From: Escherichia coli | Lineage (GTDB): Bacteria; Pseudomonadota; Gammaproteobacteria; Enterobacterales; Enterobacteriaceae | Length of the DNA: 64,000 nucleotides | Assembly (NCBI RefSeq): GCF_003018235.1 | Contig: NZ_CP027437.1 | Direction: 5' to 3' (one strand) | Shown here: positions 666 through 5,310 of the stretch, piece by piece | How positions within the stretch are numbered: the stretch's first letter is position 1 | How the letters are laid out: each line of letters opens with the position of its first letter | Position numbers and translations under genes: made by a program | The notes under the pieces: generated by a model | Told to the model about the DNA's origin: nothing | What the model saw: only the letters and a program-made list of their open reading frames with translations | Databases searched by the model: none

Positions 666-1859
666 ATGCCAGTACAGATTTCAGGTGTGCTGAAGGATGG
701 TACAGGAAAACCGGTACCGGAGTGCACCATAGAGCTGAAAGCCGTGAGAACCAGTGAGACGGTGGTGGTCACCACGGTGGCGGAGTGTCAGCCGGGGGAA
801 ACAGGCAGTTACAGCATGCAGGTTGAGCCGGGGCGTTATCGTGTGACCCTGTGCGTGGAAGGTCGCCAGCCAGCATATGCCGGAGAGATTGATGTCATGG
901 CAGACGACAAACCGGGTACCCTGAATGCCTTTCTGCTCCGTGAAACGGATGCTGCGTATTACCCTGATGCACTGAAGAAACTGGAAGCGGCGGCGGATGA
1001 GGCTGTGCGCAGGGCGCGGGAAGCTGCTGAGAAAGCGGAAACTGCCGTGGGGCCACAGGGGCCAAAGGGAGATAAAGGCGAGAAGGGGGAGCAGGGGCCA
1101 AAGGGTGATAAGGGAGACACCGGTGCACAGGGGCCGAAGGGAGAAACCGGCGCTAAGGGTGACAAAGGTGATACAGGCCCCGCAGGTCCGAAAGGTGAGC
1201 GGGGCGACCCTGGCGGCCCACAGGGGCCAAAAGGGGATACGGGAGCCGCAGGTCCGGCAGGCCCACAGGGGCCGAAAGGGGATACCGGAGCCACAGGCCC
1301 GGCAGGCCCACAGGGACCAAAAGGAGATACCGGAGCCGCAGGTCCGGCAGGCCCACAGGGACCGAAAGGAGATACAGGAGCCACCGGTCCGGCAGGCCCA
1401 CAGGGACCGAAAGGAGATACGGGGGCCGCAGGCCCGGCAGGCCCACCGGGACCGAAAGGAGATACCGGAGCCACTGGTCCGGCAGGCCCACTGGGACCGA
1501 AAGGGGATACGGGAGCCACCGGTCCGGCAGGTCCGCAGGGGCCGAAAGGCGATACCGGAGCCACCGGTCCGGCAGGTCCGCAGGGTCCGGCGGGAAGTTC
1601 TGACAGCGGGTTGTTTGGCGTCGGTTCTTTTGTTCTTGCAGCGTATTACCCGACGAGTTACTCGGGGGACATGCCACCGGGCACAACTGTTGCCGGGTCA
1701 TCACTGTCTGCATGCTGCCTTTCGAATGGTACTCCCCTGATTGCGTCCGGTAATGTGGGGGAAACCCGTTTACCGGGGACGTGGCGTGCATGTGGTCCGT
1801 TAATATGGACATCTGCTGCGGGTATCAGACAGGCAGGATTATTTCAGCGCATATCATGA
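666..1859 (+). CDS. stf: Phage side tail fiber protein: lambda Stf-like N-terminal domain, central collagen-like Gly-X-Y region, short C-terminal domain
   Basis: N-terminus [17 protein letters not shown]... resembles lambda Stf; long [11 protein letters not shown] Gly-X-Y repeats; GGGGG Shine-Dalgarno before the ATG. Confidence 0.8.
1215..1583 (+). repeat. Tandem 45-bp (15-aa, [11 protein letters not shown][A/T]GPA) collagen-like repeats, 8 full units plus a partial unit, inside the tail fiber gene; the wider Gly-X-Y region spans about 1053..1595
   Basis: Direct reading of in-frame repeat units with synonymous and A/T variation between copies. Confidence 0.85.
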
Positions 1860-2475: not shown

Positions 2476-3135
2476 ATAAAAAAAGCGGGGCCACCCCCGG
2501 GCCCCGACATAACGAAGTATCAGATGTTTATAATTATTAGCTTACTAACTGTGCCATATCAGAATACTGCAGGAAGTGATGTTGTTATCATTTTTGCAAG
2601 CAGGGCGTTTCTGGAGGGAATCGATTGGTGATGGAGTGTGCAATGATGAAGGGAATAAGCCTCTGCAAAACAAAAAAAGACTTTAACAAAATCAAGCTCG
2701 CTTAGTGGCGCATCTGCCCGTATCCGCACCAGTCGTCCGGAAAATGATTCAAACACCGGGCGGCAAAAGTATTACCAGTGTAGCAACCTGGAATGCGGCG
2801 TATGCTTCTCAACTCTGGCAGCTTTCCATAAATTCACATCGAAACACGCTTCCGGCGTTCACTCTTCAGAAGGTATCCCGTGGCATGAACTGCCAGCTTC
2901 ACACTGGTGAAACAATCAGATGACTTTTCCTTTACCTCAAATTAACAGGCAGAATTGCCGGAGTAACAAAAAAACGATAGATTACGCGCGGGTGCCTTTC
3001 GGCTGATGGTCGGAGGGAATACCCGAAGGCCAGATGTGGAAAGGCCCCGGAAAACACTTTTGTTTAACCGAGGCCCTAACCGTCTACCCTAAGCAAGTGA
3101 TAGGTTAGCGCCTCCCCGAAAAAGGAGCAAGCGCT

Positions 3136-3276
3136 ATGTCGCAAAAATCGCTGATCGCCATCACGCTCTGCGTGACAGCAACCCTCATCATCTGGATATT
3201 GCACGGTTCGCTGTGTGAGATACGGATGAGTTTCTGGGGAGCGGAGTTTGCGGCGTTCTTACAGTGTAAGCAGTAA
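3136..3276 (+). CDS. Hok/Gef-family type I toxin-like small membrane protein (46 aa: MSQKSLIAITLCVTATLIIWILHGSLCEIRMSFWGAEFAAFLQCKQ)
   Basis: Not in the ORF track (under 60 aa). N-terminal transmembrane helix followed by the Hok signature SLCEIR ... E.AAF, closest in my memory to HokA and Hok of plasmid R1; AAAGGAG Shine-Dalgarno 7 nt upstream. Confidence 0.6.
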   Translation: MSQKSLIAITLCVTATLIIWILHGSLCEIRMSFWGAEFAAFLQCKQ

Positions 3277-3417
3277 GGAGACCGCGACGGGGGAGTAATC
3301 CCCCGTCAATCGGTTGTCAGGGTAAGGTCGAAGTGGCACCCAAATTTAAATAGAGGCCCACCAGTAAGAGTAAGAGCGGTGGGCTTAGCACTTGTTTAAA
3401 TTTGAAAGGAATTCTTT

Positions 3418-3714
3418 ATGAGTGAAATGGTATTTTGTCGCGGCTGCGGCAAGGAAATACATAAAAATGCCATATCTTGCCCCAATTGTGGAGCACCTCA
3501 AAGAACAGCAAGTTCAAAAAGCAGGATTACAGCTGCACTACTGGCTTTCTTTTTTGGTGGTCTCGGTGCACACAAATTTTATTTAGGTAAAGTGGGACAA
3601 GGATTTCTTTATCTTATTTTTTGCTGGACATTCATTCCGGCAATCGTGGCTTTTATTGAGTTTATTATCTATCTATGCACCTCAGATGAAGATTTCGCCC
3701 GCAAATATGGCTGA
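3418..3714 (+). CDS. Small membrane protein with an N-terminal zinc ribbon (CxxC-N11-CxxC) and a TM2 domain (GGLGAHKFYLGK motif)
   Basis: 98-aa ORF with AAGGA Shine-Dalgarno; motif reading only. Confidence 0.6.
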   Translation: MSEMVFCRGCGKEIHKNAISCPNCGAPQRTASSKSRITAALLAFFFGGLGAHKFYLGKVGQGFLYLIFCWTFIPAIVAFIEFIIYLCTSDEDFARKYG

Positions 3715-3739
3715 CATCTAGCGGACGAATCAGAATGAC

Positions 3740-3770
3740 AAACCCGCAACCCGCAGCGTAAAAACTGCGG
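3740..3770 (+). terminator. Rho-independent terminator after the TM2-domain gene
   Basis: CCCGCAG / CTGCGGG stem followed by TTTTCTTTT. Confidence 0.7.
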
Positions 3771-3960
3771 GTTTTCTTTTGCTACCCATCACGAATGAGG
3801 GCACCATAAAGAAAGCCCACAGCATAGTGGTTGCGGGCTTTTTACATTCAAAGATGGACGTTTTATGGACATTGAAAGTTTAAATCCTTTAACTTTCAAC
3901 TGGTTGATGCTAATTTTAACGCACCCGAAGGCGCGTTGGCGATACACTCAATATAAAGGA

Positions 3961-4356
<396 letters not shown>

Positions 4357-4523
4357 TCAAAATGTGTGATGGAAATCTCATAATTTTGTCACTTTTTGTC
4401 AACGAATCTTTTTTGTGAGAAATCGCAGGAAGAGGTGTTTTTTTACTTGAGGAATATCTCAAAGCGAGCCATATTTGATGAGATCGATAGTGACTAAATC
4501 GCTTCAGTTTCACAACTAACAGA

Positions 4524-4556
4524 ATAAAAAAACGGCAGCTCAAGGGCTGCCGTTTT
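4524..4556 (-). terminator. Bidirectional hairpin terminator downstream of bamD
   Basis: ACGGCAGC / GCTGCCGT stem flanked by an A-run and a T-run. Confidence 0.6.
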
Positions 4557-4572
4557 GTGTTTCAGGTTTTTG

Positions 4573-5310
4573 TTATGTATTGCTGCTGTTTGCAGCGATG
4601 ATTTTCGCTACTTTTTCAGCTTGCGCATTCATCTGCATCTGACGGTATGCATTTTCCATCAGCGGCAGCGCATCACGCGTCGCCTGGGTATCCGGGTAGT
4701 CGCGCAACATGCCTTCTACGCGGTTAACGACGGCAACCCATGCACCACGTTCTGTATAGTACTCGGCAACGGAGTATTCATATTTCGCCAGACGATCTTT
4801 CAGGAATACCAGACGTTTGGTGGCATCGGTGGTGTACTGACTGTTCGGATAGCCGCGCACCAGTTTGGAAAAGTCACTAAACGCAGCTCGTGCATGTTGA
4901 GGATCGCGATCGCTACGGTCAACGCCAAAGAACCCTTGCAGCGCACTGTCATCGAGCGCCATATTGGTCAGGCCACGCATGTACATGACATAATCGATAT
5001 TCGGATGGGTCGGGTTAAGGCGAATAAAACGATCGATGGCAGCCTGTGCTAACGGCAAATCGGCGTTTTTATAGTAGGCGTAGATGAGATCCAGCTGCAC
5101 CTGCTGCGAATATGGACCAAACGGATAGCGATTATCTAACGCTTCCAGTTGCGTTATTGCCTGTCTCCAGTTACCGTCCTGCAGCTTTTGTTGTGCAGTC
5201 GCGTAAATTTCATTTGGCGGATTATCAGGTACTTCTTCCTTTGACCCCGAGCAACCCGCCAAAAACAGGCTTAGTGTGGCGGCTGCCACCAGATATTTCA
5301 TGCGCGTCAT
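4573..5310 (-). CDS. bamD: Outer membrane protein assembly factor BamD (lipoprotein, TPR-like)
   Basis: 245 aa with lipobox LAGC. Confidence 0.95.

What the first reader, a model, noticed from the sequence alone, without database searches (positions are those of the whole stretch)
3418..3714. Zinc-ribbon + TM2-domain small membrane protein encoded immediately downstream of the hok-like gene
The 98-aa ORF has an N-terminal CxxC-N11-CxxC zinc ribbon and a TM2-domain hallmark (GGLGAHKFYLGK followed by two hydrophobic helices). It has its own Shine-Dalgarno and terminator (3740..3770). TM2-domain proteins in bacteria and phages have no established function as far as I know.
Basis: partly seen in the sequence, partly recalled or inferred. 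Interest (0 to 1): 0.6.

Follow-up and report, generated by a model that had tools for sequence, protein, structure and literature searches.

The report
Prophage-borne zinc-ribbon TM2 membrane protein gene
A real, strongly conserved 98-residue inner-membrane protein gene of unknown function is carried as add-on cargo at the decayed end of a P2-like (P88-type) prophage in E. coli. It is a known, already annotated protein family rather than a new kind of system.

Summary
The ORF at 3418..3714 is real. It matches Pfam TM2 (E=4e-19) and has an N-terminal C4 zinc ribbon whose four cysteines are invariant in 58 homologs. dN/dS is about 0.1. RefSeq already calls it "TM2 domain-containing protein". 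No library or paper searched gives a function for bacterial or phage TM2 proteins.

The window is E. coli. A lambdoid prophage tail end abuts a remnant of a P88-type (P2-like) prophage: ogr pseudogene, hok/sok, TM2, then raiA.

Compared with phage P88, the TM2 gene is an AT-rich insert of about 390-400 nt (GC 0.40 against 0.52). It sits between the 3' fold-back element of the hok mRNA and the hok-locus terminator. So it has its own ribosome-binding site but no recognisable promoter, and "its" terminator is the ancestral hok terminator.

The same family recurs as single-gene cargo after ogr in other P2-like prophages and just before the tape-measure gene in Acinetobacter phages, which is the HK97 gene-15 slot. 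It also lies between cI and int in a Streptococcus phage, and at stable chromosomal sites in several genera.

Best guess: a lysogen-expressed membrane factor, possibly excluding incoming phage. This is inferred, not shown. Interest is moderate to low.

The parts
2699..2910 (+). ogr/Delta-like pseudogene. This is the left edge of the P88-type (P2-like) prophage remnant, and the junction with lambdoid tail-fibre DNA is at about 2699.
   Evidence: Homology to P2-like loci and to phages P88 and P88_4B11 starts at 2699. The translation lacks the start codon and the first CxxC and stops early, compared with the intact 86-aa Ogr of L002. RefSeq annotates a 62-aa fragment.
2990..3341 (+). [quoted passage not shown] The hok CDS is 3136..3276. 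The 5' element gggtgcc (2990-2996) is complementary to the 3' fold-back element ggcaccc (3335-3341).
   Evidence: PHROG 251 'MokW-like host killing' E=6.5e-21. Rfam sok RF01794 matches 2990-3149 at 45.7 bits, E=1.3e-8, below the gathering score. The segment is 93% identical to the hok locus of phage P88 up to 3341. The complementarity is read from the sequence.
3342..3747 (+). Insert relative to phage P88 that carries the TM2 gene. By eye the homology resumes at about 3728, so the insert is about 390-400 nt. GC is 0.40.
   Evidence: BLAST against P88 (NC_026014) aligns window 2699-3341 and then 3748-3780.
3341..3404 (+). Long hairpin (-25 kcal/mol) without a T-run, directly abutting the ribosome-binding site. 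It is conserved in the P2-like copy L002.
   Evidence: RNA fold. It was not called as a terminator.
3404..3410 (+). Shine-Dalgarno sequence (gaAAGGA), 7 nt before the ATG.
   Evidence: Sequence.
3418..3714 (+). CDS of the 98-aa zinc-ribbon + TM2 protein. Residues 1-30 form the cytoplasmic C4 zinc ribbon. Residues 36-55 form helix 1, ending in GGLGAHKFYLG. Residues 59-87 form kinked helix 2 (W70, T71, P74, E81). Residues 88-98 form the conserved acidic tail SDEDFARKYG.
   Evidence: RefSeq WP_106906727.1 'TM2 domain-containing protein'.
3748..3783 (+). Intrinsic terminator (9-bp stem, 6 GC pairs, T-run). It is the ancestral hok-locus terminator of P88-type phages and is shared by hok and TM2.
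   Evidence: Terminator scan. 33 nt are 100% identical to P88, and roughly 290 E. coli genomes match only the last part of the query, which includes this stretch, without the TM2 gene.
3784..3821 (+). Last stretch homologous to P2-like prophage ends. Positions 3822-3917 are of unassigned origin, and core E. coli sequence (the raiA side) resumes at 3918.

Best explanation
What it is (shown). The gene is a single-gene cargo ('moron'-type) insert at the right end of a P88-type, P2-like prophage. Only the segment ogr'-hok/sok-TM2 of that prophage survives here, next to raiA, and it is fused to a lambdoid prophage tail region. The product is a 98-aa protein with two membrane helices.

Topology (inferred). 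The zinc ribbon needs the cytoplasm, and a family of fusions places a pilin head after a third helix. Both point to N-in/C-in, with the zinc ribbon and the conserved acidic tail in the cytoplasm and the H-K-F-Y-L-G loop facing the periplasm.

How it is expressed (inferred). No promoter is recognisable between hok and the ORF. The insert lies between the hok mRNA fold-back element and the hok terminator. The gene is therefore most likely transcribed by read-through from the constitutive hok promoter, that is, in the lysogen.

What it does (inferred, weakest step). It has no catalytic domain, and it has invariant polar residues within or beside the membrane helices (H52, W70, E81; T71 and P74 nearly invariant). 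It probably works as a small oligomeric or partner-binding hairpin that alters an inner-membrane machine. In a prophage the most likely pay-off is protection of the lysogen at the envelope. That would be exclusion of incoming phage at the DNA-entry or tape-measure step, as with the unrelated HK97 gp15 moron protein.
For: Identity and reality of the gene.

Cargo nature:
- Absent from the closest phages (P88 and relatives), which have ogr-hok-terminator.
- Absent from every Peduoviridae record in the phage collection.
- GC 0.40 and GC3 0.31, against 0.52 and 0.53 around it.
- About 93 of 5,426 complete E. coli genomes carry this allele, while roughly 290 more match only the last part of the query, which includes the shared 33-nt terminator.

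A mobile cassette. Homology between phage and chromosomal copies is confined to the gene plus short flanks:
- L013 against L008: -62 to the stop codon.
- L032 against L114: -120 to +60.
- L038 against L004: starts right after ogr.

Lysogeny-type or moron positions in unrelated phages:
- After ogr, next to attR, in at least six diverged P2-like lineages, with or without hok.
- Between the cI/ImmA-like genes and int, on the same strand, in Streptococcus phage Javan7.
- After the endolysin and spanin genes, at the prophage edge, in Dickeya.
- In 33 Acinetobacter phage contigs the order is tube, two small ORFs, TM2, tape measure. Some have a lipoprotein gene inserted beside TM2.
- That is the slot of HK97 gene 15, a small inner-membrane exclusion protein with chromosomal YebO homologs (PMC3594210).

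Retention: the gene is intact while the neighbouring ogr has decayed.

Expression inference.

Topology: and the TM2-pilin fusions.
Against: No experiment or annotation links any TM2 protein to phage exclusion. PADLOC is negative.

Exclusion proteins usually evolve fast and are patchy. This family is the opposite:
- It is 55-60% identical to archaeal and CPR copies.
- dN/dS is about 0.1.
- It is more conserved than the neighbouring gpD and Ogr proteins.
- It sits at stable chromosomal sites across genera: cueR|copA in Kosakonia, Erwinia and Mixta; cpxP|fieF in Enterobacter; beside ihfA in Yersinia.

The prophage copy shows no divergence from chromosomal copies, unlike gp15 against YebO. TM2 proteins also occur in lytic phages and giant viruses.

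There is no sequence relation to gp15. Co-transcription with hok is inferred from anatomy only. The structure model is of modest confidence (pLDDT 70), and fold searches gave nothing.
Confidence: 0.3

Rival explanations
1. It is a general envelope or ion-homeostasis factor. The TM2 hairpin has the same conserved cellular job in chromosomes and in phages, for example forming or regulating a small ion or metal path, or stabilising a membrane complex. Phages carry it as an auxiliary host-physiology gene with no anti-phage role.
For: Conservation is extreme from Enterobacterales to archaea, with invariant H52, W70 and E81 in or beside the membrane.

Purifying selection is strong.

Chromosomal positions are stable across genera: cueR|copA in seven loci of three genera, cpxP|fieF, and beside ihfA.

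Prophage copies are not diverged from chromosomal ones. The family is present in lytic phages and giant viruses.
Against: This does not explain the repeated choice of lysogeny-type and moron slots. It also does not explain retention in a decayed prophage in a species, E. coli, that lacks a chromosomal copy in about 98% of complete genomes.

In the cueR|copA loci the CueR-box copA promoter lies downstream of the TM2 gene, so TM2 is not part of the copper regulon. No transporter-like fold was found.
Confidence: 0.3
2. It modulates a GxGD-type intramembrane aspartyl protease or the type IV pilin pathway. The TM2 hairpin binds the prepilin peptidase or pilus platform and changes pilus, type II secretion or DNA-uptake functions. 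In a lysogen that would block pilus-dependent phages.
For: A widespread fusion family joins zinc ribbon + TM2 (56% identical to this protein) to a third helix and a type IV pilin domain that lacks the prepilin cleavage motif. There are 131 representatives at E<=1e-30, and 23 of 25 sampled members match Pfam Pilin.

In Drosophila, a fragment of Almondex consisting of the TM2 domain and its short tail blocks Notch at the gamma-secretase step (PMC8714088). That presenilin and prepilin peptidases are both GxGD aspartyl proteases is my own knowledge.
Against: The fusion genes are not in pilus operons, and a fusion may only use TM2 as a membrane anchor. There is no co-occurrence evidence and no direct data. 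The metazoan proteins have the opposite topology.
Confidence: 0.05
3. It is a functional partner of hok, for example a modulator or antidote of the Hok toxin, or a second membrane toxin released with it.
For: It lies inside the hok transcription unit, between the fold-back element and the terminator. Both products are small inner-membrane proteins.
Against: P88-type phages have hok without TM2. At least six other P2-like lineages, and all chromosomal, Acinetobacter, SfV-like and Gram-positive copies, have TM2 without hok. hok/sok is self-sufficient (established knowledge).
Confidence: 0.04
4. It has a lysis-timing function as a holin, antiholin or pinholin-like protein.
For: It is a small protein with two hydrophobic helices and a charged C-terminal tail. 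One Dickeya prophage copy follows the endolysin and spanin genes.
Against: It is not in a lysis cassette in the window, in P2-like, Acinetobacter or Streptococcus phages. In Dickeya it is a separate unit about 400 nt downstream. Stable chromosomal orthologs with no phage genes nearby do not fit a holin.
Confidence: 0.05

Closest known systems
Pfam TM2 domain (PF05154) / COG2314 'YozV'; NCBI names 'TM2 domain-containing protein', 'zinc-ribbon domain and TM2 domain-containing protein', 'NINE protein'
   Same: Full-length match to the domain model with the same conserved loop motif. Hundreds of 97-100-aa homologs at 65-95% identity have the same zinc-ribbon + TM2 architecture.
   Different: Nothing differs: it is a plain member. 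The family has no assigned function.
HK97 gp15 moron protein (superinfection exclusion; chromosomal YebO homologs)
   Same: Both are small inner-membrane proteins encoded by an add-on gene. Both have homologs in phages and as ordinary chromosomal genes. In Acinetobacter phages the TM2 gene occupies the same slot, immediately before the tape-measure gene.
   Different: There is no sequence relation (hhalign probability 0.4%). gp15 has one helix, and its C-terminal part has diverged from YebO, whereas phage TM2 copies are not diverged from chromosomal ones. No exclusion phenotype is known for TM2. The window copy lies after ogr/hok, not beside the tape-measure gene.
Metazoan TM2D1/2/3 (Drosophila biscotti, amaretto, almondex; Alzheimer-risk gene TM2D3)
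   Same: Same Pfam domain. The loop motif D-R-F corresponds to H-K/R-F here. There is also a short conserved C-terminal tail, and the molecular function is likewise unknown (PMC8714088).
   Different: The metazoan proteins have a signal peptide, a large extracellular N-terminal region and an intracellular loop. This protein has a cytoplasmic zinc ribbon and therefore the opposite orientation.
Lysogenic-conversion cargo of P2-like phages (old, tin, fun/Z) and the P88-type hok/sok locus
   Same: It is variable cargo at a fixed spot of a P2-like genome. After the hok fold-back element, P88 has nothing, P88_4B11 has other genes, and this lineage has TM2.
   Different: The location differs: ogr-attR rather than the Z/fun or tin/old spots (the latter from my own knowledge of P2). 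The gene matches no PADLOC defence model.
Zinc-ribbon-TM2-type IV pilin fusion proteins (unnamed family)
   Same: The N-terminal 100 residues are homologous (56-57% identity) and include the tail motif.
   Different: The fusions add a third helix and a periplasmic pilin domain, which the window protein lacks.

Membership tests
Pfam TM2 domain (PF05154) | Significant full-length match to the profile | tested here: met
   E=4.1e-19, 69 bits, model positions 2-51 of 51, residues 33-83.
Pfam TM2 domain (PF05154) | Two hydrophobic helices joined by a short loop | tested here: met
   Hydropathy peaks at residues 35-52 and 59-90. AlphaFold2 helices at 36-46/51-55 and 59-87, pLDDT about 70-79.
Pfam TM2 domain (PF05154) | Conserved loop motif G-x-H-[KR]-F-Y-L-G (the counterpart of metazoan DRF) | tested here: met
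   G50, H52, F54, Y55 and L56 are invariant, and K53 and G57 are at least 90% conserved, in 58 homologs.
Zinc ribbon (PF13240 and relatives) | Two CxxC knuckles separated by a short spacer, conserved in homologs | tested here: met
   C7-x2-C10-x10-C21-x2-C24 is invariant in 58 sequences. The profile E-value of 1.4e-4 is weak on its own.
Zinc ribbon (PF13240 and relatives) | Binds zinc | not testable with these tools
   Needs metal analysis of purified protein.
Phage moron (as defined in PMC3594210, citing Juhala et al. 2000) | Extra DNA between elements that are adjacent in related phages | tested here: met
   P88 has the hok fold-back element, about 22 nt, then the terminator. The window has roughly 390-400 nt inserted there.
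Phage moron (as defined in PMC3594210, citing Juhala et al. 2000) | Base composition differs from the neighbours | tested here: met
   GC 0.40 (GC3 0.31), against 0.51-0.54 for ogr', hok and the core genes.
Phage moron (as defined in PMC3594210, citing Juhala et al. 2000) | Own promoter | tested here: not met
   No sigma-70-like site lies between hok and the ORF, even with relaxed rules. Other alleles carry conserved upstream motifs or, in Lonsdalea, a FliA-type promoter.
Phage moron (as defined in PMC3594210, citing Juhala et al. 2000) | Own terminator | tested here: inconclusive
   A good terminator follows the gene, but it is the pre-existing hok-locus terminator. Other alleles have their own.
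Phage moron (as defined in PMC3594210, citing Juhala et al. 2000) | Expressed from the repressed prophage | not testable with these tools
   Needs transcript mapping in the lysogen.
HK97 gp15-type superinfection exclusion protein | Sequence homology to gp15/YebO | tested here: not met
   hhalign probability 0.4%, 9 aligned columns.
HK97 gp15-type superinfection exclusion protein | Blocks genome entry of incoming phage without blocking adsorption | not testable with these tools
   Needs plating, adsorption and DNA-entry assays.
Known anti-phage defence systems (PADLOC-DB v2) | Match to any defence-protein model | tested here: not met
   0 families at E<=0.1.
hok/sok toxin-antitoxin module (as an added component) | Consistent co-occurrence with hok | tested here: not met
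   hok occurs without TM2 in P88 phages. TM2 occurs without hok in most contexts.
Holin | Encoded in the lysis cassette next to the endolysin | tested here: not met
   The window copy is next to ogr', hok and raiA. P2-like, Acinetobacter and Streptococcus copies are not in lysis cassettes.
Metazoan TM2D proteins | Signal peptide, extracellular N-terminal region and intracellular loop | tested here: not met
   The N-terminus is a C4 zinc ribbon with no signal peptide. It shares the domain but not the architecture.

The most novel reading that the evidence does not exclude
The TM2 hairpin is a universal binding or regulatory module for GxGD-type intramembrane aspartyl proteases: presenilin/gamma-secretase in animals, and prepilin or preflagellin peptidases in bacteria and archaea. 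Phages would carry it to shut down pilus-, secretion- or DNA-uptake-dependent entry routes in the lysogen. A one-gene E. coli prophage cassette would then be a simple genetic model for the unexplained, Alzheimer-linked TM2D proteins.
Probability: 0.05. Interest if true: 0.85.

Novelty: new member of a known kind. Interest (0 to 1): 0.35.

Why it matters
The TM2 domain is found in bacteria, archaea, phages, giant viruses and animals. The animal members (TM2D1-3) affect Notch signalling, and a TM2D3 variant is associated with Alzheimer's disease. No molecular function is known in any of these lineages.

This copy is a compact single gene in an E. coli prophage remnant. It is intact, under strong purifying selection, and appears to be wired into a constitutive transcription unit. 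That makes it an easy object for knock-out and expression tests.

Its recurrence at moron slots of unrelated phages, including the HK97 gene-15 slot, gives a concrete and testable hypothesis of phage exclusion at the inner membrane.

If the tests come out negative, the gene remains an ordinary, already annotated hypothetical membrane protein.

Tried and rejected
Database and structure searches that gave nothing:
- PADLOC returned no families, and NCBIfam returned only a sub-threshold zinc-finger family.
- PDB sequence and profile searches matched only generic zinc ribbons.
- BFVD returned only other TM2 or zinc-ribbon proteins with no function.

Literature searches: queries on TM2/phage, PF05154, COG2314/YozV and 'NINE protein' returned no functional data. 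The 'NINE protein' query returned only unrelated papers.

Ideas tested and dropped:
- The Hok diversity preprint does not mention TM2, ogr or P2-like phages.
- No promoter was found for the window copy.
- A FliA (sigma-28) promoter seen upstream of some copies is confined to Lonsdalea-type copies, 5 of 179 loci, and is absent here.
- I considered a copper or zinc regulon link because chromosomal copies sit beside copA or fieF. The CueR-box copA promoter lies downstream of the TM2 gene, so the gene is not in that operon.
- The small E. coli plasmid examined carries only a truncated pseudogene copy, and the other small-plasmid matches are partial too.
- The pilin-fusion genes are not in pilus operons.

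Not attempted: an oligomer model with linked copies, because the tool returns no coordinates, so contacts could not be read.

Full report
**1. The observation.** Positions 3418..3714 (+) hold a 98-codon ORF with an AAGGA ribosome-binding site 7 nt upstream. Pfam gives TM2 (PF05154) at E=4.1e-19 over residues 33-83, covering the whole model, and a zinc ribbon at E=1.4e-4 over residues 6-27. In an alignment of 58 homologs the four cysteines are invariant, as are G47, G50, H52, F54, Y55, L56, G62, W70, I73 and E81. Against close copies dN/dS is 0.09-0.13, and against more distant copies synonymous sites are saturated while dN stays at 0.12-0.2. This is a real gene under strong purifying selection. 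Three small corrections apply. The cysteine spacing is N10, not N11. The GGLGAHKFYLGK motif lies between the two helices rather than before both. The terminator is shared with hok, as shown in section 3.

**2. Where it sits.** The window is E. coli and is 100% identical over the region to strain O158:H23 CFIAFB20140388, where RefSeq already annotates "TM2 domain-containing protein". Upstream lie lambdoid tail genes: lom, a collagen-repeat tail fibre and a DUF4376 gene. Downstream lie raiA, bamD, rluD, yfiH and clpB. From 2699 to 3821 the DNA is about 92% identical to the right end of P2-like prophages, in the order gpD, ogr, hok, TM2, host DNA. The Ogr type is that of Xuanwuvirus (phage P88 and relatives) at 93-99% identity. 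In the window, ogr has lost its start codon and its first CxxC and stops early. Only a decayed remnant of the P2-like prophage is left, yet hok and the TM2 gene are intact. Core E. coli sequence resumes at 3918. This exact junction occurs in 2 of 5,426 complete genomes.

**3. Anatomy relative to P88.** Phage P88 aligns with the window from 2699 to 3341, covering ogr and hok up to the element ggcaccc. That element is complementary to gggtgcc at 2990-2996 and is taken to be the fold-back pairing of the hok mRNA. P88 then aligns again at 3748-3780, 33 nt at 100% identity, which is the terminator. In P88 these two points are about 22 nt apart. The TM2 segment is therefore an insert of about 390-400 nt. 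It consists of a -25 kcal/mol hairpin (3341-3404), the ribosome-binding site, the ORF and a few bases. It sits inside the hok transcription unit. Its GC content is 0.40 (GC3 0.31), against 0.51-0.54 around it. No sigma-70-like promoter lies between hok and the ORF, even under relaxed rules, and the hairpin has no T-run. I infer transcription by read-through from the hok side. This is not shown. P88_4B11 carries different genes at the same point, so the spot is a cargo site. In complete E. coli genomes about 93 carry this TM2 allele. Roughly 290 more match only the last part of the query, which includes the shared terminator stretch. A second allele, 71% identical at the protein level, lies directly after ogr without hok in 5 genomes.

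**4. The family elsewhere.** The protein search found more than 1,100 clusters. Most are 97-100 aa and are named "TM2 domain-containing", "zinc-ribbon domain and TM2 domain-containing" or "NINE protein".

Phage and prophage contexts:
- After ogr in at least six diverged P2-like lineages. TM2 identity is 69-95%, while gpD is 48-73% and Ogr 33-52%.
- In 33 Acinetobacter phage contigs (relatives of phages 5W and vB_AbaSI_5), directly before the tape-measure gene and after two small ORFs that occupy the chaperone position. In about a dozen of them an extra insert of about 0.5-0.9 kb lies beside it; in the one examined (L062) it encodes a lipoprotein.
- Among small genes between the sheath/tube genes and the tape-measure gene in Escherichia phage BUCT618.
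- Antisense, between the tape-measure and baseplate-hub genes, in an SfV-like contig.
- After the endolysin and spanin genes at a prophage edge in Dickeya.
- Between the cI/ImmA-like genes and int in Streptococcus phage Javan7.

Chromosomal contexts with no phage genes nearby:
- Between cueR and the CueR-box copA promoter in seven Kosakonia, Erwinia and Mixta loci.
- Between cpxP and fieF in Enterobacter.
- Beside ihfA in Yersinia.
- Single-gene sites in Photorhabdus, Aeromonas and others.

Homology between phage and chromosomal copies is limited to the gene and 60-260 nt of flank, so the unit moves as a cassette. Copies 55-60% identical occur in archaea and in candidate-phyla bacteria.

**5. 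What it might do.** No library or paper gives a function. No solved structure is related. The AlphaFold2 model is modest (pLDDT 70) and matches nothing informative. The protein has no catalytic domain. It has a cytoplasmic zinc ribbon, which other lineages replace with other small domains, a two-helix hairpin with invariant polar residues, and a conserved acidic tail.

The closest functional analogy is HK97 gp15. That is a small inner-membrane protein encoded by a moron in the slot before the tape-measure gene. It is expressed from the prophage, blocks genome entry, and has chromosomal homologs called YebO (PMC3594210; gene position confirmed). There is no sequence relation to gp15.

Against an exclusion role stand three points: the extreme conservation, the stable chromosomal orthologs, and the lack of divergence of the phage copies. 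These fit a general envelope function equally well. I therefore rate the two readings about equal, at 0.3 each.

**6. A side lead.** A large family fuses zinc ribbon + TM2 to a third helix and a type IV pilin domain without the prepilin cleavage motif. This supports the N-in/C-in topology. Taken together with the finding that a TM2-only fragment of Drosophila Almondex blocks Notch at the gamma-secretase step (PMC8714088), it allows a speculative link to GxGD intramembrane proteases or the pilin pathway. The fusion genes are not in pilus operons.

**7. Verdict.** The gene is a member of a known, annotated family of unknown function, carried as prophage cargo. The added value here is:
- its precise anatomy as an insert inside the hok transcription unit of a decayed P88-type prophage end;
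- its recurrence at moron slots of unrelated phages;
- a short list of testable hypotheses.

Interest is moderate to low (0.35).

Noticed in passing
window 2699 (junction); 2699..2910: Lambdoid tail-fibre-region DNA is joined to a 5'-truncated, degenerate ogr gene of a P88-type prophage. Two prophages of different families are fused or stacked at the raiA-proximal site. A viral contig (L023) has an intact P2-like end near the same raiA flank.
   Followed up: partly
window 666..1859: The tail-fibre N-terminal-domain gene has a long collagen-like G-X-Y repeat ([10 protein letters not shown]...). The repeat produces long spurious ORFs in other frames and on the opposite strand.
   Followed up: no
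window 3822..3917: About 97 nt of AT-rich sequence (GC 0.39 over 3776-3917) match neither the P2-like prophage ends nor the core raiA flank of other E. coli genomes. The origin is unassigned.
   Followed up: no
L034 4250-4320, L036, L037, L126, L130 (Lonsdalea-type copies): A near-perfect sigma-28/FliA class-3 promoter (TAAAGNTTT-N11-GCCGATAA) lies about 36 nt upstream of the TM2 start in 5 of 179 loci. In that lineage the gene would be expressed with late flagellar genes.
   Followed up: partly
L062 4525..4989 (Acinetobacter phage contigs L061-L072): A 154-aa lipoprotein gene (signal sequence ending in the lipobox LVGC) is inserted between the chaperone-position ORFs and the TM2 gene. It has no PHROG or PADLOC match. 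This slot collects envelope-targeted cargo.
   Followed up: partly
L177 4001..4738 and proteins P0122-P0262: A widespread fusion family joins zinc ribbon + TM2 to a third helix and a type IV pilin domain without the prepilin cleavage site. In L177 it lies next to a split Old-family nuclease gene and a ParE/RelE-like ORF.
   Followed up: partly
L148-L175 (Acinetobacter chromosomes), e.g. L160 3788..4201 and 4240..4845: Chromosomal Acinetobacter TM2 proteins replace the zinc ribbon with a domain of about 65 aa that is not in Pfam. The convergent neighbouring gene carries the same N-terminal domain on a different membrane module, which looks DUF805-like from the sequence.
   Followed up: partly
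L102-L105, L109, L112, L118 (cueR|copA); L008-L012 (cpxP|fieF): Chromosomal copies sit repeatedly in regulatory intergenic regions next to metal-efflux genes (copA, fieF). The CueR-box promoter lies downstream of the TM2 gene, so no operon link is evident. The recurrence is unexplained.
   Followed up: partly
L020 (plasmid pCO_Eco4457-4); other small E. coli plasmids of about 2.6-10 kb: In the plasmid examined (L020) the TM2 copy is a truncated pseudogene, with a separate zinc-ribbon fragment, next to wzz(fepE). The matches in other small plasmids also cover only part of the gene.
   Followed up: partly
L183 3100..5258 (phage P88_4B11): At the exact point after the hok fold-back element where the window carries TM2, P88_4B11 carries several other hypothetical genes. 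This is a cargo hotspot of Xuanwuvirus phages.
   Followed up: no
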